Origin: Escherichia phage LPEK22
Sequence record: OK283619.1
Strand: one strand, 5' to 3'
DNA length: 64,000 bases
Below are positions 20,771-34,393 of the stretch, piece after piece; position 1 is the stretch's first letter, and each line of letters starts with the position of its first letter. The notes beneath the pieces are model-generated. The model was not told the DNA's origin. It saw only the letters and a program-made list of their open reading frames with translations, and ran no database searches. The translations under genes were made by a program, and so were the position numbers.

Positions 20771-20807
20771 ACTAACTAAGGGATAATCCTATATCCCGAG
20801 GTGTGTC

Positions 20808-21257
20808 ATGTTCCTTACATCCTTTATTGACTGGATGAATATCATAAATGGCCTGAGGATTCCTGTTGGGAACCTCGGGCTTTCTCGTTCTTCTATGCCG
20901 CAAATCGATGCCGACAAACAAGAAGATTTTCACAAATATCTTGAAGACAACGGCGTGTCCATAGATGCTGCGCAAGTGCCCATCAAAATGCTTCGTCTTA
21001 CCCAGAACGAAATCAATAAAATGAAGGTCTGGAAGATTATGAAGCAGATCAGAAATAAGAAGCCCATGGGTCGAGTTTGGGTGTCTTCTGACAATTACGT
21101 TGTTGACGGGTCTCACCGATTTGTCGCTGCGTTGAACATGGACGGCAAACAGCGCATGAAGGTCTACAAAGTTGATTTGCCAGCGATGGAATTTGTTAAA
21201 CTCGCTAAACAGTTTCAGGGTGTGCGATACAGAACGGTCAGCGATACCCGTTTCTGA
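20808..21257 (+). CDS. ParB-like nuclease domain protein
   Basis: LRLTQNEIN...YVVDGSHRFVAALN resembles ParB/Srx N-terminal domain. Confidence 0.4.
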   Translation: MFLTSFIDWMNIINGLRIPVGNLGLSRSSMPQIDADKQEDFHKYLEDNGVSIDAAQVPIKMLRLTQNEINKMKVWKIMKQIRNKKPMGRVWVSSDNYVVDGSHRFVAALNMDGKQRMKVYKVDLPAMEFVKLAKQFQGVRYRTVSDTRF

Positions 21258-21336
21258 ATACGATAGTTTATTGAAACCCTTTACTCAACATGGTGACAGC
21301 CCTATCATTTTATCCAATGAAATAAGGAGAATCACC

Positions 21337-22026
21337 ATGAAACGTTTAATCATCGGGGTTGTGCTGGCTGGTCTGGCACTTCCTGCCACCGCCAAGCTGA
21401 ACTCCACAGGTGAAAAACTGTGGTCTGATCTTTCCTACTGTGCTGGGTTCTCCCAAGCCGTCGCTATAGACAAAACTGGTTCCATAGAGAACTTTGCTGA
21501 ACTCTGGACCACAGGTAATGTCACAGATGCCGTTGTAAATGCTGGTATTGAGTTTAATCGATATAAGCAAGGCGCGTTCAACCTGAAAGGATATATGAAC
21601 GACAAAGAATTTAACCGAGGAGGCATGGAGGCTGGCGATCTTATTATGACTGGTCGTATGGGTACACAAGGACGAATGACCGTAAGACAGTGCCGTTCTC
21701 TTCCTTCTCCAGCATTACAAAAAGGTGTGCAGGTTGGCCGACGTCAGCTGGATCTCATCAATGATGGCAACCAATGCATCAAGGTGTTTGAATATAGTGC
21801 CGACCAAGAATCAGATCGACGTTTGAAAAAGGAATGGCGGACTCGCGCCCTTGGCCTGAGAGCATGGCTGGTGGAAAATGATCATTATTATGAAGACCGT
21901 GTTCAGAATGGTTTGAAAGATCTTTCCACTAATTTGTCTGTCAATCTTGATGATCCAAGGCTTTCCCGTGAACTCAAGCAAACAAGAATTGACTGTGATA
22001 ATATGATGAAGGAGAACGAAAGATGA
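21337..22026 (+). CDS. secreted protein with Sec signal peptide (229 aa)
   Basis: Start at internal ATG with AAGGAG RBS; N-terminus MKRLIIGVVLAGLALPATA is a signal peptide. Confidence 0.5.
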   Translation: MKRLIIGVVLAGLALPATAKLNSTGEKLWSDLSYCAGFSQAVAIDKTGSIENFAELWTTGNVTDAVVNAGIEFNRYKQGAFNLKGYMNDKEFNRGGMEAGDLIMTGRMGTQGRMTVRQCRSLPSPALQKGVQVGRRQLDLINDGNQCIKVFEYSADQESDRRLKKEWRTRALGLRAWLVENDHYYEDRVQNGLKDLSTNLSVNLDDPRLSRELKQTRIDCDNMMKENER

Positions 22027-22343
22027 AAATCAAAATCTTATTGTTATTCCTGTGCACTTTCATGTCTTCCCAAGTATTGGCAGCTCCGGCCAGTAAGTTG
22101 AATATTTGTGCTGCTTGGTTGTCTACATATCAACAATTCCATCCGGATGATAAGGATACATCAATTCTTTTATCTGATTATGAAGGTGAATTGAAACGCC
22201 TTGATCTCTATAGTGTGGACCAGATAGAGAATGCGCTTGATTTATCTATGATGGAATCTGCCGCAGACAACAGCAAACAGACTATTAAAGATCTGACGAT
22301 GTGTCGTGAAATTGCAACTAATTTCGTTGGAAATCAAAGATAG
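22023..22343 (+). CDS. small secreted protein with signal peptide (106 aa)
   Basis: MKIKILLLFLCTFMSSQVLA signal peptide; ATGA overlap with upstream gene. Confidence 0.5.
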   Translation: MKIKILLLFLCTFMSSQVLAAPASKLNICAAWLSTYQQFHPDDKDTSILLSDYEGELKRLDLYSVDQIENALDLSMMESAADNSKQTIKDLTMCREIATNFVGNQR

Positions 22344-22392
22344 TTTCAGGTTAAAATTTTATTCCCCATTGAACTGAAAGGTGTATTTCGTG

Positions 22393-23184
22393 ATGATCAT
22401 TACCAAAAAGATCGCTGAGGCGATCGTTGAAAAGAATAAAATGTTCGCACCTAACAAAGCAAAGGTTATTCTGATCCATGATGATGGTCGCGTGGTCTTC
22501 GCTGAAAAATTTGAGCAAGGGTGCGCTTTCTGGTTTGCAGACACGATGCGTGAAAGCAAGCTACAGGGCATCATTTACAAATTAACTCTGGTTGCCAAGC
22601 GCAACGACCAGGGTGACTGGGTTACGGTTTGTGATTTCAGCTCCAAGGTTGATACTCGACCAAAATCTCGCCAAGAGAGAATTCTGGAAGCTCAGGAAAA
22701 ACTTGTTGCTGCTCGTACTTCACCAGTCATTAAGCCAGCAGTCATCTCCCCTTCTATTGATCTGCCGCCTGTCAGCCAAAAGGCTGTTGAGCAATATGCA
22801 GAAAAACGAAAAGAAGAACCCGTGAAGTCTCCGGTTGAGAATAAAGAAGAATCTGAATTTATTTCAATCAGGCAGTTATGTCCGCAAGAAAGGCGATTTT
22901 CTTCACCAAATGATTTATTCGTGTCTTTCCGGTCTAATGGGAAGATTATATTGTGCAAAACCCTACGGGAACAATTGCAGTGGCCTAACATCAATATGAT
23001 GGTGAGTCGGAACTTCAAACGATTCGCAATCGGTGAAGGTAAAGATTATCCTGTTAATAAGAGCGGAACATATGCAAATCGTCATATGTGCGACAAATTG
23101 TCTTTCCCAAACGATTCTGGCACTATTCGTGTTCGTTTAGAATGGGATGAAAGTTTGAACATGTATGTCGGTGATATAAAATAA
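22393..23184 (+). CDS. hypothetical protein (263 aa)
   Basis: ORF; track start is GTG, internal ATG chosen; followed by terminator. Confidence 0.45.
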   Translation: MIITKKIAEAIVEKNKMFAPNKAKVILIHDDGRVVFAEKFEQGCAFWFADTMRESKLQGIIYKLTLVAKRNDQGDWVTVCDFSSKVDTRPKSRQERILEAQEKLVAARTSPVIKPAVISPSIDLPPVSQKAVEQYAEKRKEEPVKSPVENKEESEFISIRQLCPQERRFSSPNDLFVSFRSNGKIILCKTLREQLQWPNINMMVSRNFKRFAIGEGKDYPVNKSGTYANRHMCDKLSFPNDSGTIRVRLEWDESLNMYVGDIK

Positions 23185-23198
23185 TTCAATAACATTAG

Positions 23199-23227
23199 GG
23201 CGGTTATTATTAAACCGCCTTTTATTT
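23199..23227 (+). terminator. rho-independent terminator
   Basis: GGCGGTT...AACCGCC hairpin followed by TTTTATTT. Confidence 0.6.
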
Positions 23228-24199: not shown

Positions 24200-24509
24200 A
24201 CCGTTTGAACTTAAATTTCGCGTTTGGCATATTCCCCAGGTTCCTGGGATCGCTTTTCATGTTGAGGTTCCAACATTTGAAGAAGCGCAGCGCCTGAAGA
24301 ATACTCTGGCTGATTACGACCTGTTTCAGTATAACAATAACATCAAGCCGGATTATTGTAATGCTTCCGGCGTTCAAATATACCAACATGATCTGACTGA
24401 AGAAGATCTAAATGATATGGGTCTGGATGATCGTTGGGTTGATATCGAAGATATTGACGAACTCAACGATTATTTTGATCATCTGCGTAGCACAGGGTGG
24501 GAAATATGA
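24189..24509 (+). CDS. hypothetical acidic protein (106 aa)
   Basis: ORF with RBS GGGAGA. Confidence 0.45.
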   Translation: MSNKPFELKFRVWHIPQVPGIAFHVEVPTFEEAQRLKNTLADYDLFQYNNNIKPDYCNASGVQIYQHDLTEEDLNDMGLDDRWVDIEDIDELNDYFDHLRSTGWEI

Positions 24510-24715
24510 TCGGGTTAATCCGTTATCTGTTCATATTCGTAATTTCAACATTCATTTTATTTTTCTTTTTCAAATACTTGAAAGAGACTAAAATCTACCG
24601 AAGTAAACGTTGGCGTAAACGGGTGAGGGTAACTTTCCTGCTGCTGATTTCTTCGGTTACAATAACCGCACTCACATTGGGTGCATATATCTACATTTTT
24701 GAAGGGGTACATTGA
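24506..24715 (+). CDS. small membrane protein, two predicted TM helices (69 aa)
   Basis: ATGA overlap with upstream gene; hydrophobic LIRYLFIFVISTFILFFFF and FLLLISSVTITALTLGAYIYIF. Confidence 0.45.
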   Translation: MIGLIRYLFIFVISTFILFFFFKYLKETKIYRSKRWRKRVRVTFLLLISSVTITALTLGAYIYIFEGVH

Positions 24716-25506
24716 TGTTCAAGAAATTGGTGTTTGGTGCAATTATGGTTCTGGCTGCAAGTCTACTTTCTGGTTGTGGTGGCGTTATCGATGAAGGTAA
24801 TGTCGGCGTTCGCACCCAATGGGGTGAAGTAGACATGAACCCTGTAACAGCGGGGATCTACACCAGCTTTGTTTCAAGCGTGGATGTTTACACGACCAAA
24901 GAAGCCGTTGTGAGTCTGACGAAAATGACGCCAAAGGCCAAAGACAACCTGACCTTGGAAGATCTGGATGTGGACGTTTATTACACACCGAACGTCGCGA
25001 AGGTTCCTTGGTTCCATACCAAATTTGCAGGTCAGAGCGCTGAACTCGGTGACGGCACGATAGCGGTGGGATTCAACCTGGTTAAAACCGCCGCAGCATC
25101 CTCAACGATGGACGCCGTTTCCTCTTTGGATTCTATGACAATTCACACCCAACGGGCTGAGTTAGAAAAGATGATCAAGGAACGCACCCAGCAGCAATTG
25201 GAAACTGCTGCGCCTGGCATGTTCACAATCACACGTGTGTTGGTGAAAAAGGCGCTGACAGATCCTTCGATTGAGCAATCTATCCGTGATAATGTCATGG
25301 CCGACAAACGTTTGGATACAGCAAGAAAGAACGTTGAAATTCGAGACCAAGAAGCCAGGGCGAATCAGAAACTGACGACATCTCTGACACCTGAATATTT
25401 ACAACACGAATATAACATGGTGTTGCAATCTTGCGCCAACAGCGGGAAATGTACTCTGATTGTTGATGGTTCAGGCTCAAGTAAAATGCTAAACGTCGGC
25501 AAATAA
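24712..25506 (+). CDS. SPFH/band-7 (prohibitin-like) domain lipoprotein
   Basis: Lipoprotein signal with lipobox LLSGC; GNVGVRTQWGEV...VDVYYTP resembles SPFH domain. Confidence 0.6.
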   Translation: MMFKKLVFGAIMVLAASLLSGCGGVIDEGNVGVRTQWGEVDMNPVTAGIYTSFVSSVDVYTTKEAVVSLTKMTPKAKDNLTLEDLDVDVYYTPNVAKVPWFHTKFAGQSAELGDGTIAVGFNLVKTAAASSTMDAVSSLDSMTIHTQRAELEKMIKERTQQQLETAAPGMFTITRVLVKKALTDPSIEQSIRDNVMADKRLDTARKNVEIRDQEARANQKLTTSLTPEYLQHEYNMVLQSCANSGKCTLIVDGSGSSKMLNVGK

Positions 25507-30966: not shown

Positions 30967-33300
30967 ATGAACAATGTAGACCTATTATCAAAATTTGGTT
31001 CGCTGTTGAAAGAAGCGGACACTCCTGTTTCTGTTGAAGCACCATTTGAAATCCGTGGGGAAATTACCCACAAACTGACTTTCCATCGCGGTCGCGCTAA
31101 AAACTTTCGTTCTATCGGTAATGAATTCATGGAAATTGATTACCAACGCAACCCTGCAACCTTGGTTACATCCGATGACAATGGCGCTGGTAAATCCACC
31201 ATGCTTGTCTGGCTGCTGTTCTTCGTTCTGTATAATGACACATATAGCAAGAAAGAAAAGAAAGCCGGATTAGTCAATTCCCAAAACAAAAAGGAATGCG
31301 TGGGTGAAGTTGAGTTCTCCACTCGAGGAAGTGAATGGAAAGTCCGTCGTGGTATCAAACCTGATTTCGTAGAAGTCTATCAGATGGTAGACGGTGAGTG
31401 GAAGCAGGTCGTGAATGATGCGGCCAAAGCCGACATGAACAAATATATTGTGAACCTGATTGGCGTAGACCAGAAGATGTTTGAGAACTCCCTGGTTCTG
31501 GGCAAAGAGAAGTTCATCCCATTCACGGAAATGTACACTGCCGACCGTCGCGCTATGGTAGAGACAATCTGGGATTTGGGGTTCTTCAGTCTGATGAATG
31601 AAGATGTAAAAGCATCTATCAAGACAGTAACGAATGAACTCACGACGGTCACCAATGATTACGCCTTTCATGATGTAAATTTAAAAGGCCAGCAATCGCA
31701 GTTGGAACAGATCAATAATTCCAATGCGATGATCCAGCAACAATCTGCTGATATCCTTGTCCAAGAGAAGGAACGTCTGAATAGCCTGAATTCAGATATC
31801 AGCGCAGTGCAGGAACAACTGACAGAGTCCCGTGCTCAAGACTCTAAATTGGAATCAGAATTATCAGAAGTCCGTAATCGCCTGAATGCCGAAATGAAAG
31901 GGGATATCGATGCCATCAATGAAGAGTATGCGGCCAAAATCCAAGCAGTTCAGGATGAAGCCGATACCAAGGCTGAAGATTATGAACGCATAGAAGTATC
32001 CGACGGCGAAAGGTCGTTACAAGAAATCCGCGAAAGAATGGCGGTGGTCACAGAACGCAAAAACGAACTAGTCGGTCAGAGGAATGCTAATCTCGACGAA
32101 CTGAATAAAGCGTTGGCGCGGCGTCAACAGGGAGAGAACTTCCGTATCAAATTCGTAACAGAAATGGAAGGACATGAATCTGCCATCAAACGTTTCCACG
32201 ATATGGGCACTTGCCCTACGTGTACGCAATTAGTGTCGGACGATACCAAATCACGCATTGAAAGTCAATATTATCCACAAATCAGTGAACTGACTGACAA
32301 GATTCTTCAGGTTGATACAGCCCTAGAAGAAGTGAATTCCCTGATTGAGAATTACAATGTCAGAGATTCAGAATTATCTTCTCAGATTTCGGTTATTGAC
32401 AAAGAACTGGATGCTTTGCGCAATGAAATCCGAGAAGCGGAATCGGCGATCGCTACATTAAAACGCGACATCCAAGGATTCTATGATGTCGCTGCTGTTG
32501 AGAAAACATCTTTACAGCGGGAACAACAGTCCAAAATTAACGACGTCCTCAAGGCCGTAGACACCCGTTACGAAGATATCACGACGTCAATCCGTCAAGC
32601 GCGTGAGCAGCTCTCTAAGAGTATCAACGACACGGCTGATAAACTCACCAGCCTGAAATCACGCCGTGCCCCTCTAGAGGCATCCATTGCCGATTTAGAG
32701 CGTAAATTGGCGGTTAAGCCGACACCAACTGAAGCCCTGGAAGGAGAGATCGCTCGCATCACGGCATTAATGGAAGATCTGAATGCGCGGCGCGTAGAGT
32801 TGGATGAGAAATTGCAAGACCTGAACCATCTTCTGTTCTTCCTAAAAGATGATCAGACCAAGGCTCGAATTATCAGCCTGTATTTGCCTTTCCTCAATAG
32901 TAAAATAAACGAGTATCTTGAAGCACTCAATATGTTCTTGGATATTGCTGTTGATGATACATTTGAAATCACCATGAGCGCTGCAGGTCGTAAAGGGCAA
33001 AGCATATTCTCCCTGTCTACAGGACAACGCAGCCGACTCAATCTGGCTGTGACATTAGCCCTACGGGACGTGGCCAACCTCAAGGCGTCGGTGCAATGTA
33101 ACCTGTTTGTGTTAGATGAAATCCTTGAGAACATGAGCGAGCGTGGCGTACAAGAATCGGTTGAGATGCTGAAACATAAATTTGGTGGGAACAATCTATT
33201 TGTCATCAGTCAGCGTGAGCAGGAGTTCCAAGAATATTTCCAACATAACATTCGTTATGGTCTGCGTAATGGCATGACCGAAGTGATTAAGAAGGATTGA
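30967..33300 (+). CDS. 46: recombination ATPase subunit (gp46, Rad50/SbcC-like)
   Basis: Walker A DDNGAGKST, long coiled-coil middle, C-terminal signature/Walker B (LFVLDE); adjacent to gp47. Confidence 0.88.
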   Translation: MNNVDLLSKFGSLLKEADTPVSVEAPFEIRGEITHKLTFHRGRAKNFRSIGNEFMEIDYQRNPATLVTSDDNGAGKSTMLVWLLFFVLYNDTYSKKEKKAGLVNSQNKKECVGEVEFSTRGSEWKVRRGIKPDFVEVYQMVDGEWKQVVNDAAKADMNKYIVNLIGVDQKMFENSLVLGKEKFIPFTEMYTADRRAMVETIWDLGFFSLMNEDVKASIKTVTNELTTVTNDYAFHDVNLKGQQSQLEQINNSNAMIQQQSADILVQEKERLNSLNSDISAVQEQLTESRAQDSKLESELSEVRNRLNAEMKGDIDAINEEYAAKIQAVQDEADTKAEDYERIEVSDGERSLQEIRERMAVVTERKNELVGQRNANLDELNKALARRQQGENFRIKFVTEMEGHESAIKRFHDMGTCPTCTQLVSDDTKSRIESQYYPQISELTDKILQVDTALEEVNSLIENYNVRDSELSSQISVIDKELDALRNEIREAESAIATLKRDIQGFYDVAAVEKTSLQREQQSKINDVLKAVDTRYEDITTSIRQAREQLSKSINDTADKLTSLKSRRAPLEASIADLERKLAVKPTPTEALEGEIARITALMEDLNARRVELDEKLQDLNHLLFFLKDDQTKARIISLYLPFLNSKINEYLEALNMFLDIAVDDTFEITMSAAGRKGQSIFSLSTGQRSRLNLAVTLALRDVANLKASVQCNLFVLDEILENMSERGVQESVEMLKHKFGGNNLFVISQREQEFQEYFQHNIRYGLRNGMTEVIKKD

Positions 33301-33302
33301 TC

Positions 33303-33611
33303 ATGGGTAGCCTGATTCGTGTATCAAAGAAATCCAAGGGCGCTGAAAAGCGCCTGTACAAAGCCGTTCGCCTGATGATCCTCTACAAGTACAAAGCGGA
33401 GAATCAATGCTGGCGCAAGAAGACACGCGCCCGATATCAGTTGGCTCAGTACAATATGAGGCGCCATGTCGTCCGACTAGCATTGAAGATCGCAGGGAAT
33501 TACAGTTATTGGACATGTGAGGCTGTGGGTAGCCGCAAGGCCATTGACCTCATATATGACCGGAACCTGTCCTTCTTGATCAATCTATCTAATTATGAGG
33601 ATATGTCATGA
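33303..33611 (+). CDS. hypothetical basic protein (102 aa)
   Basis: ORF; track start is TTG, ATG chosen. Confidence 0.4.
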   Translation: MGSLIRVSKKSKGAEKRLYKAVRLMILYKYKAENQCWRKKTRARYQLAQYNMRRHVVRLALKIAGNYSYWTCEAVGSRKAIDLIYDRNLSFLINLSNYEDMS

Positions 33612-33766
33612 TGGCTACTATTTGTTTGGTATTTTTGATTTTAATCACAATTTGTTCTGTGAATATGTGTTTACGCCACATAAACTCTGGAGAAATTATC
33701 TATGGTTTTATGTACGGTGGTGTAAGCGTTTGGGCAGCATACTGGTTAGCTGATACAATCATATGA
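33611..33766 (+). CDS. small hydrophobic membrane protein (51 aa), below ORF-track cutoff
   Basis: Translated manually: MATICLVFLILITICSVNMCLRHINSGEIIYGFMYGGVSVWAAYWLADTII; start and stop overlap neighbouring genes. Confidence 0.3.
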   Translation: MATICLVFLILITICSVNMCLRHINSGEIIYGFMYGGVSVWAAYWLADTII

Positions 33767-34361: not shown

Positions 34362-34393
34362 AAGGGCACTAAATATCACGTGCCCTTTATCTT
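34362..34393 (+). terminator. rho-independent terminator
   Basis: AAGGGCAC...GTGCCCTT hairpin followed by T-rich run. Confidence 0.6.

What the first reader, a model, noticed from the sequence alone, without database searches (positions are those of the whole stretch)
21337..22343. Two consecutive Sec-signal proteins, candidate periplasmic effectors
The 229-aa and 106-aa proteins both begin with textbook signal peptides (MKRLIIGVVLAGLALPATA and MKIKILLLFLCTFMSSQVLA) and are translationally coupled. In T4 the periplasmic proteins are lysis-inhibition and superinfection-immunity factors, so these are candidates for lysis inhibition or exclusion, although they show no sequence similarity to T4 RI.
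Basis: inference. Interest (0 to 1): 0.45.

Follow-up and report, generated by a model that had tools for sequence, protein, structure and literature searches.

The report
Secreted phage protein pair mislabelled spanin
Two overlapping genes of a ViI-like (Kuttervirus) Salmonella phage encode small helical proteins that are exported into the host periplasm; databases call them a "spanin", but here they lack both membrane anchors a spanin needs, so their real job is unknown, most plausibly blocking superinfection or controlling lysis timing.

Summary
ORFs 21337-22026 (229 aa, "A") and 22023-22343 (106 aa, "B") are real genes. They share an ATGA overlap and each has its own AAGGAG ribosome-binding site. 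Both start with Sec/signal-peptidase-I-type signal peptides.

The window is a Kuttervirus (Ackermannviridae), 99% identical to BSP101, heyday and SFP10. The pair occurs in about 280 phage genomes and is syntenic across at least five genera, but it has only 11 cluster representatives among 1.84 billion proteins.

Public records label the pair "i-spanin / o-spanin (Rz-like)", a label that goes back to phage Marshall. That label fails here:
- A's uncharged segment is 16 residues, ends in a conserved AxA|K site, and precedes two globular helical domains rather than a coiled coil.
- B has no lipobox. A canonical lipobox occurs only in one shallow, derived Marshall-type clade.
- The spanin database's own authors list SFP10, Vi01 and CBA120 as spanin-less.

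No sequence or fold relationship was found to T4 RI, T4 Spackle or any solved structure.

Best reading: a co-translated pair of soluble, probably disulfide-stapled periplasmic binding proteins, probably expressed early. A role in superinfection exclusion or lysis timing is plausible, because CBA120 shows lysis inhibition with no known antiholin, but it is untested.

The parts
21280..21308 (+). Sigma-70-like promoter candidate (TTTACT-17 nt-TATCAT) directly upstream of gene A
   Evidence: Consensus scan, 9 of 12 matches. A -10-like TATCAT or TATGAT sits at the equivalent place upstream of A in Bue1 (TTTTCA-16-TATCAT) and 3M (TTATTC-17-TATGAT). No copy of the late-gene motif ACTAAATAY lies nearby. 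Function is inferred, not shown.
21324..21329 (+). Ribosome-binding site AAGGAG of gene A
   Evidence: Read from the sequence; 7 nt before the ATG.
21337..22026 (+). Gene A: 229-aa exported protein (PHROG 4260; labelled 'i-spanin' or 'hypothetical protein' in public records)
21337..21393 (+). Signal peptide of A (aa 1-19, MKRLIIGVVLAGLALPATA), predicted signal peptidase I cleavage A-T-A|K
   Evidence: The uncharged run is only 16 aa, with Pro at -4 and Ala at -3 and -1. AxA|K is present in all 23 full-length family members aligned. The AlphaFold model gives it low confidence and no structure.
21394..21738 (+). A N-terminal domain (aa ~20-134): five-helix bundle, the part conserved in all lineages; Cys35 and Cys119
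   Evidence: AlphaFold helices 23-47, 50-59, 64-84, 89-105, 111-120, pLDDT 83-95. It is the only part present in the 3M, Kevin and Bue1 lineages and in P0068-P0075. Cys35 is invariant in 31 of 31.
21739..22023 (+). A C-terminal domain (aa ~135-229): helical domain added in the Kuttervirus, Agtrevirus, Limestonevirus and Taipeivirus lineages; Cys147 and Cys220
   Evidence: Helices 140-157, 161-180, 186-198, 207-228. Absent from 3M, Bue1, Kevin, L009 and L010. Both cysteines are present in 23 of 23 full-length members.
22009..22014 (+). Ribosome-binding site AAGGAG of gene B, inside the end of gene A
22023..22026 (+). ATGA start/stop overlap coupling A and B
   Evidence: A 4-nt overlap is also annotated or called in 3M, Kevin, Bue1, L009 and L010.
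22023..22343 (+). Gene B: 106-aa exported protein (PHROG 3843, 'Rz-like spanin', 'putative lipoprotein' or 'o-spanin' in public records)
22023..22082 (+). Signal peptide of B (aa 1-20, MKIKILLLFLCTFMSSQVLA), predicted signal peptidase I cleavage V-L-A|A-P; no lipobox
   Evidence: The only Cys in the signal (C11, context LFLC) has Leu at -1 and is not conserved, 4 of 37. Position -1 is Ala in 36 of 37.
22083..22340 (+). Mature B (aa 21-106, 9.7 kDa, pI 4.5): compact helical bundle with invariant Cys29 and Cys94 and an invariant Y-Q-Q-F-H..D-K.T-S-I-L-L-S-D block
   Evidence: AlphaFold pLDDT 89-98 over residues 21-100, 84 over the last six, helices 25-39, 44-59, 65-69, 74-81, 85-105. Invariant columns. 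Cysteines 37 of 37. pI.
23197..23221 (+). Terminator-like hairpin that would end the A-B-(264-aa ORF) transcript
   Evidence: Scan: 9-bp stem followed by a T-run. The 264-aa ORF (22390-23184) between B and this hairpin has no signal or transmembrane segment and is not conserved next to the pair in 3M or Bue1.

Best explanation
Genes A and B form a conserved, co-translated two-gene module of enterobacterial Ackermannviridae. Its products are exported by Sec, cleaved by signal peptidase I and released as soluble periplasmic proteins.

Each folded unit (A N-domain, A C-domain, B) is a small all-helical bundle with one cysteine in its first helix and one in its last, so each is probably stapled by a disulfide made in the periplasm. 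The module is probably transcribed from its own host-type promoter early in infection.

The proteins have no catalytic signature and no relatives. They most likely work by binding: first to each other (mildly basic A N-domain, acidic B), then to a conserved periplasmic target.

My committed guess for the target is the envelope-crossing or lysis apparatus of the phage itself. That would mean a Spackle-like or RI-like role in excluding superinfecting sibling phages, in generating or reading the lysis-inhibition signal, or both.

They are not a spanin in this phage, because neither protein has a membrane anchor.

Shown: gene reality, coupling, signal-peptide features, conservation pattern, predicted folds, absence of anchors. 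Inferred: cleavage, disulfides, A-B complex, early timing. Guessed: the exclusion or lysis-timing function.
For: Export and cleavage:
- Short hydrophobic cores with a conserved small-x-small site.
- B's signal is hypervariable, 38% against 77% identity for the mature part.
- All distant lineages keep signal-peptidase-I-type signals.

Folds: B pLDDT 84.6, with 89-98 over residues 21-100; A pLDDT 79.1, with two helical domains.

Cysteines: B C29 and C94 in 37 of 37; A C35 in 31 of 31; A C147 and C220 in 23 of 23. Each sits in the first or last helix of its domain.

Coupling and co-occurrence:
- ATGA overlap here, and a 4-nt start/stop overlap kept in five lineages.
- Identical synteny: vWA, ACP..., 150-aa gene, A, B..., Band_7..., GP17, HU, helicase.

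Charge: A N-domain pI 8.7 against B pI 4.5, and the same in Miltonvirus 3M.

Timing: a promoter-like site at 21280-21308 with positional equivalents in Bue1 and 3M, and no late-gene motif nearby.

Biological rationale: the Kuttervirus CBA120 shows lysis inhibition at high multiplicity, with holin and antiholin unidentified (PMC3184105). T4's two periplasmic players are RI and Spackle. Spackle has B's layout: a 22-aa cleaved signal, a 75-aa mature protein and two cysteines (that it is all-helical is from my own knowledge).
Against: - No genetic linkage to endolysin or holin.
- No holin with a periplasmic domain, which an RI-like partner would need to bind, has been identified in these phages.
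- Being a core gene across genera (PMC10892097) is unusual for exclusion genes, which tend to be accessory.
- Cleavage, disulfides and the A-B complex were not computed with dedicated tools.
- Expression timing rests on consensus matches only.
Confidence: 0.5

Rival explanations
1. The pair is a genuine, unusual two-component spanin, as annotated. A would stay in the inner membrane through an uncleaved N-terminal segment, B would be tethered to the outer membrane, and the complex would fuse the two membranes at the end of lysis.
For: - Listed as a 'separated' two-component spanin for phage Marshall in the SpaninDataBase (PMC6139136 supplements).
- Marshall-type B has a canonical lipobox, LIAG|C.
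- Gene order, larger N-terminally hydrophobic protein then small exported protein with overlap, mimics spanin architecture.
- These phages have no other recognised spanin (Table 10 of PMC6139136; my lipobox scan).
- The pair is a core gene pair.
Against: - In this window B has no lipobox. The canonical lipobox occurs in 6 of 36 clusters forming one shallow derived clade, with a Cys-to-Ser sister; outgroups are signal-peptidase-I type.
- A's hydrophobic run is 16 aa bounded by K/R and K, with conserved AxA. The Rz homologue of mEp043 printed has about 23.
- A is predicted as two globular bundles with no coiled coil (supplement file 4 of PMC6139136 lists 0 coiled coils).
- B is a well-folded 86-aa bundle, not a short proline-rich tether.
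[quoted passage not shown]'.
- The same paper lists SFP10, Vi01, CBA120, Maynard, AG3 and RC-2014 as spanin-less.
Confidence: 0.06
2. B, or the A-B complex, is specifically an antiholin working like T4 RI: a periplasmic protein that binds the holin and delays lysis when superinfection is sensed.
For: CBA120 shows lysis inhibition and its antiholin is unknown. The proteins are periplasmic, small, helical and probably expressed early.
Against: - The signals look cleavable rather than signal-anchor-release type.
- No T-like holin with a periplasmic domain is annotated in Mansal.
- The one PHROG 'holin' there is a 53-aa two-TMD protein with almost no periplasmic part, and it is absent from this window.
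Confidence: 0.12
3. The pair modulates a host envelope component unrelated to lysis or exclusion. It could inhibit a periplasmic protease, nuclease or cell-wall hydrolase, or blunt an envelope-based defence, or it could chaperone or pilot another protein.
For: - Small disulfide-bonded helical periplasmic proteins are typically inhibitors, immunity proteins or pilotins.
- The pair is found only in phages of Enterobacterales, which fits a target conserved in that order.
- The mature domains are highly conserved across phages of different host genera.
Confidence: 0.22
4. The pair is a new kind of outer-membrane-disrupting lysis factor that replaces spanins in these 'spanin-less' phages.
For: ViI-like phages lyse cleanly yet have no recognised spanin or disruptin. 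The pair is core and periplasmic.
Against: - Soluble proteins exported from early times would have no obvious restraint until lysis.
- There is no amphipathic cationic segment: B is acidic and A near neutral.
- No late promoter motif lies upstream.
Confidence: 0.06

Closest known systems
Two-component spanins (lambda Rz/Rz1; T4 PseT.3/PseT.2), the family under which the pair is annotated
   Same: Two adjacent, overlapping genes. The first is larger with a hydrophobic N-terminus, the second small and exported. Both products face the periplasm. In the Marshall clade the second gene has a lipobox.
   Different: In this phage neither anchor exists: A has a cleavable signal and B has no lipobox. 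A is globular rather than coiled-coil. B is a folded helical bundle rather than a short proline-rich peptide. There is no sequence homology to any spanin family; Marshall is a singleton in both spanin tables.
T4 Spackle (Sp, gp61.3; PDB 6X6O, 7CN6), periplasmic inhibitor of the tail lysozyme gp5, giving superinfection exclusion and resistance to lysis from without
   Same: Layout of B: cleaved Sec signal of about 20 aa, mature protein of 75-86 aa, all-helical, one Cys near each end, acidic, encoded by a T4-related virulent myovirus.
T4 RI antiholin (PDB 6PSK)
   Same: Small helical periplasmic phage protein. The host phage group shows lysis inhibition.
   Different: No sequence or fold similarity. 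RI uses a signal-anchor-release domain. RI's partner, holin T with a large periplasmic domain, has no identified counterpart here.
T5 Llp and phi80/N15 Cor (outer-membrane lipoproteins that block the receptor)
   Same: Small exported phage proteins with cysteines that act from the periplasmic side. The Marshall-type B is a predicted outer-membrane lipoprotein.
   Different: No lipobox in this window or in most of the family, no homology, and Llp and Cor act alone.

Membership tests
i-spanin (Rz-like), applied to A | N-terminal transmembrane signal-anchor that is not cleaved (type II inner-membrane protein) | tested here: not met
   The uncharged run is 16 aa (residues 4-19), flanked by K2 R3 and K20, with Pro16 and A-T-A at -3 to -1. 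AxA|K is present in all 23 full-length family members aligned, and small-x-small sites in the distant ones. This is a heuristic; SignalP was not available.
i-spanin (Rz-like), applied to A | Extended, largely coiled-coil periplasmic domain able to span the periplasm | tested here: not met
   AlphaFold gives two compact helical bundles, 23-120 and 140-228. PMC6139136 supplement files 3 and 4 list 35% helix and 0 coiled coils for the Marshall orthologue. That paper also notes that more than 120 accepted i-spanins lack predicted coiled coils, so this feature alone is weak.
i-spanin / o-spanin pair | Adjacent, overlapping or embedded gene pair | tested here: met
   ATGA overlap at 22023-22026.
o-spanin (Rz1-like), applied to B | Lipobox [LVI][ASTVI][GAS]C giving an outer-membrane lipoprotein | tested here: not met
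   The window's B has only LFLC at C11, with Leu at -1, and that Cys is not conserved. A canonical lipobox occurs in 6 of 36 homologue clusters forming one derived clade. 3M, Kevin, Bue1, L009 and L010 are all signal-peptidase-I type.
o-spanin (Rz1-like), applied to B | Short, proline-rich, mostly unstructured mature peptide | tested here: not met
   The mature protein is 86 aa and forms a helical bundle at pLDDT 89-98 over residues 21-100.
Spanin (either component) | Required for outer-membrane disruption; complements lambda RzRz1 mutants | not testable with these tools
   No experiment was found in the literature searched.
T4 RI antiholin | Homology to RI in sequence or fold | tested here: not met
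T4 RI antiholin | Binds the periplasmic domain of the holin and delays lysis | not testable with these tools
   The holin of these phages is unidentified.
T4 Spackle (PF25676) | Sequence homology to Spackle | tested here: not met
   Pfam E 0.088 in 2 of 37 members. hhalign aligns only the signal peptides, and mature against mature gives probability 0.2%.
T4 Spackle (PF25676) | Cleaved Sec signal plus small all-helical mature protein with an intramolecular disulfide | tested here: inconclusive
   Signal and fold are consistent.
T4 Spackle (PF25676) | Binds and inhibits the tail-associated lysozyme | not testable with these tools
T2SS pilotins PulS/OutS | Fold match and lipoprotein signal | tested here: inconclusive

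The most novel reading that the evidence does not exclude
A and B are the missing periplasmic component of lysis inhibition or superinfection exclusion in ViI-like phages. This would be a two-protein sensor or inhibitor unrelated in sequence and fold to T4 RI, Spackle or Imm. It would show that this behaviour evolved independently in a second lineage of T4-related phages.
Probability: 0.2. Interest if true: 0.7.

Novelty: new variant of a known kind. Interest (0 to 1): 0.4.

Why it matters
The 'i-spanin / Rz-like spanin' label is propagated through PHROG 3843, RefSeq and UniRef across the roughly 280 Ackermannviridae phage records that carry this pair. Several of these phages are candidates for phage therapy or food biocontrol. 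For most of them the label is probably wrong.

If it is wrong, these phages remain spanin-less, and how they breach the outer membrane is still open.

The pair is also a conserved, lineage-restricted periplasmic module of unknown function. Lysis inhibition has been described in this phage group (CBA120), but its holin, antiholin and exclusion proteins have never been identified. That makes A and B the first concrete candidates to delete and test.

Tried and rejected
1. A's C-terminal domain as a duplicated copy of B or of A's N-domain. hhalign probability is below 0.5%, so rejected at sequence level.
2. A's C-domain as a fused version of a separate gene in 3M, Bue1, Kevin, L009 or L010. tblastn finds nothing.
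3. Homology to T4 RI and to T4 Spackle. Only the signal peptides align.
4. Known families. Pfam, NCBIfam and PADLOC give no significant hits for either protein or any family member. A PDB sequence-profile search gives nothing below E 0.5.
6. Remote sequence relatives. A full HMM search of 1.84 billion representatives with the A profile found 11 clusters, all the same family or fragments.
7. Another spanin candidate in a complete relative, Mansal bases 1-150000 of 156284 (the last ~6 kb were not fetched). Lipobox ORFs found were a 202-aa lipoprotein, the SPFH lipoprotein and a 60-aa out-of-frame ORF that looks spurious. None lies next to a type II membrane protein.
8. Linkage to lysis genes in distant lineages. 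Synteny is the same everywhere and no lysis gene is adjacent.
9. Literature. No transcriptome, proteome or genetic study addressing these two genes was found.
The lambda Rz and Rz1 comparators there were also from memory. The only Rz sequence I rely on is the mEp043 one printed.

Full report
**What is there**

The window is part of a Kuttervirus (Ackermannviridae, ViI-like) genome. Bases 20800-23200 are 99% identical to Salmonella phages BSP101, heyday and Se-U, and 98.9% identical to SFP10.

- A, 21337-22026, 229 aa.
- B, 22023-22343, 106 aa.

Each follows an AAGGAG ribosome-binding site. B's ATG overlaps A's TGA as ATGA.

Both are real genes. They match PHROG 4260 (E 1e-156) and PHROG 3843 (E 7e-58). 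tblastn finds them in 277 and 281 phage records, all from phages of Enterobacterales apart from two oddly labelled records.

**Signals**

A begins MKR, followed by only 16 uncharged residues that contain a proline and end in A-T-A before Lys20. There is no other hydrophobic segment.

B begins MKIK, has a hydrophobic core, and ends V-L-A before Ala-Pro.

The homologues make the case stronger:
- In the B family the N-terminal about 20 residues are hypervariable: 38% pairwise identity against 77% for the rest.
- Yet position -1 is Ala in 36 of 37 sequences and +2 is Pro in 36 of 37.
- In the A family the AxA|K site is kept in all 23 full-length members aligned.
- Divergent members carry ANA|G, VHA|R, AHA|T, ANA|E, SHA|A, AQA|R, AHA|A, AVA|Q, AWS|E and ASA|A.

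This is the signature of signal peptides cleaved by signal peptidase I. I could not run SignalP, so cleavage remains an inference.

**The public label and why it fails here**

Several records call A 'i-spanin' and B 'putative lipoprotein', 'o-spanin' or 'Rz-like spanin'. A comparative paper lists both as core genes under those names (PMC10892097).

I traced the label to phage Marshall in the SpaninDataBase of Kongari et al. 2018 (PMC6139136). There:
- The pair is a singleton family in both spanin tables.
- It has no predicted coiled coil.
- It has the longest periplasmic length in the survey, 300 residues.
[quoted passage not shown] '.

Marshall's B reads MKCKILLLMVLIAG|CVNAAPPSKL, a canonical lipobox. 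The window's B reads MKIKILLLFLCTFMSSQVLA|APASKL, with no lipobox.

Among 36 homologue clusters, the canonical lipobox occurs in six. On a tree of the mature domains these six form one shallow terminal clade. Its close sister has Ser in place of the lipid-accepting Cys. The outgroups from Miltonvirus and Nezavisimistyvirus are signal-peptidase-I type, as are two further metagenomic lineages. Lipidation is therefore a recent, local acquisition and not a property of the family.

The same paper lists Vi01, SFP10, SJ2, SJ3, Maynard, CBA120, PhaxI, ECML-4, AG3 and RC-2014 as 'spanin-less' (Table 10). All of these that appear in my searches (SFP10, SJ2, Maynard, CBA120, PhaxI, AG3, RC-2014) carry this same gene pair.

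A spanin must be tethered to both membranes. In this phage neither protein is tethered, so it cannot work as one.

**Anatomy**

AlphaFold models built on family alignments are confident for the mature parts.
- B is a compact bundle of helices 25-39, 44-59, 65-69, 74-81 and 85-105, with pLDDT 89-98 over residues 21-100.
- A has two helical domains, 23-120 and 140-228.

Only A's N-domain is present in the divergent lineages, where A is 123-176 aa. These are 3M, Kevin, Bue1 and P0068-P0075. The C-domain is a later addition, with no detectable relative in those genomes, in B or in the N-domain.

Each unit has one conserved cysteine in its first helix and one in its last: A C35 and C119, A C147 and C220, B C29 and C94. 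They are invariant where the domain exists, except that the second N-domain Cys shifts a few positions in the short forms. That pattern fits intradomain disulfides made in the periplasm, but I could not measure distances.

A's N-domain is mildly basic (pI 8.7) and B is acidic (pI 4.5), and the same holds in Miltonvirus. Together with the conserved 4-nt overlap and strict co-occurrence, this suggests a heteromeric complex. That is inferred.

**Relatives**

None was found outside the family.
- A profile search of 1.84 billion representative proteins returned 11 clusters, all the same family or fragments.
- Pfam, NCBIfam and PADLOC are empty.
- PDB sequence profiles are empty.
- Foldseek against predicted viral structures finds only the Erwinia-phage orthologue of B.
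- A weak Pfam hit of two B members to T4 Spackle was due to the signal peptides alone.
- There is no similarity to T4 RI.
- The AlphaFold-database library was unavailable.

**Context and timing**

The pair lies in a long rightward block of replication and nucleotide-metabolism genes. The order is vWA protein, acyl carrier protein, DenV glycosylase and a conserved 150-aa protein. Then come A and B, followed further on by a P22-gp17-like protein labelled 'superinfection exclusion', a two-TMD peptide, an SPFH lipoprotein, HU and a helicase.

This order is kept in every lineage examined. The endolysin is about 22 kb away, and no holin is annotated in the curated relative Mansal.

A sigma-70-like site, TTTACT-17-TATCAT, lies at 21280-21308, with positional equivalents in Bue1 and 3M. 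The motif I found upstream of late genes, ACTAAATAY, is absent there. Early or middle expression is therefore likely but not shown.

**What it probably does**

Small, disulfide-stapled, all-helical periplasmic proteins without catalytic motifs usually act by binding.

The phage group gives a reason to look at lysis timing and exclusion. [quoted passage not shown]

In T4 (my own knowledge, apart from what quotes) that behaviour needs periplasmic RI, and exclusion proteins such as Spackle are thought to supply the signal. Spackle has the same layout as B.

I therefore commit to an A-B periplasmic complex that targets the phage's own entry or lysis machinery. I give about 0.3 to that function in total: the generic exclusion or lysis-timing reading, plus the 0.12 listed separately below for an RI-like antiholin. 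I give about 0.85-0.9 to the localisation and to the 'not a spanin in this phage' conclusion.

Rivals:
- a host-envelope modulator, 0.22;
- a strictly RI-like antiholin, 0.12;
- a true unusual spanin, 0.06;
- a new outer-membrane disruptor, 0.06.

**Verdict**

The functional suggestion is reasonable but untested. The finding is of moderate interest. It corrects a widely propagated annotation and provides concrete candidates for an unexplained phenotype, but it reveals no new mechanism by itself.

Noticed in passing
window 34368-34376; Mansal (OR449012) upstream of late genes: A recurrent motif ACTAAATA[CT] lies about 25-45 nt upstream of several late structural genes of the relative Mansal: sheath, tube, scaffold, tail fibre, tailspike and the large 4.8-kb gene. 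The portal gene has a one-mismatch variant. This looks like the Kuttervirus counterpart of the T4 late promoter TATAAATA. Only one copy occurs in this 64-kb window.
   Followed up: partly
window 24497-24715 and 24715-25506: A 72-aa protein with two transmembrane segments and a highly basic loop abuts the start of a 263-aa SPFH/Band_7 protein (1- to 4-nt overlap, depending on which start is used) that carries a canonical lipobox (LLSG|C). This membrane pair is conserved in distant relatives and lies 2.2 kb downstream of the finding. It is the only clear lipoprotein near the locus.
   Followed up: partly
Mansal OR449012 42272-42613 (outside the window): A 113-aa protein with an N-terminal transmembrane segment and a coiled-coil-like C-terminus (PHROG 3961, unknown function) sits with a small virion protein between the two neck genes. 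Its topology resembles a class III holin or an i-spanin, but no lipoprotein gene is adjacent.
   Followed up: partly
Mansal OR449012 94577-94738; window ~33297-33753: A 53-aa two-TMD protein that PHROG calls 'holin' (phrog_35473) follows the gp46-like recombination nuclease gene in Mansal. It has no counterpart anywhere in this window, which carries different small ORFs at that position. It is therefore not a conserved lysis gene at this locus.
   Followed up: partly
window 22023-22082 compared with homologues P0031-P0066: The signal peptide of B is replaced almost completely between otherwise 87%-identical proteins: MKIKILLLFLCTFMSSQVLA against MRNVLFLLFFSVLASFQVMA. Cysteines appear sporadically close to the cleavage site in several lineages (AGTC, GVAC, TITC, ISSC). 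The signal seems to drift in and out of near-lipobox sequences.
   Followed up: partly
L004 (Bue1) 2007-2504; proteins P0069, P0073, P0075: In the Nezavisimistyvirus-like lineage, protein A carries a 30-50-aa extension with a conserved motif (IRL-x-PEYKDP) between the signal peptide and the conserved helical domain. This extension is absent from Kuttervirus.
   Followed up: no
window 20808-21257: A 149-aa protein immediately upstream of the pair is conserved in that position in every lineage examined. It matches the middle of a 740-residue PHROG profile, matches ParB-like nuclease domains weakly, and is annotated as a virion structural protein in LIMEstone-derived records.
   Followed up: no
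Mansal OR449012 129933-130115 (outside the window): A 60-aa out-of-frame ORF with a lipobox-like ISSC overlaps two annotated genes that have no transmembrane segments. It is probably spurious, but it is the only embedded lipobox ORF found in the 150 kb of the genome scanned.
   Followed up: partly
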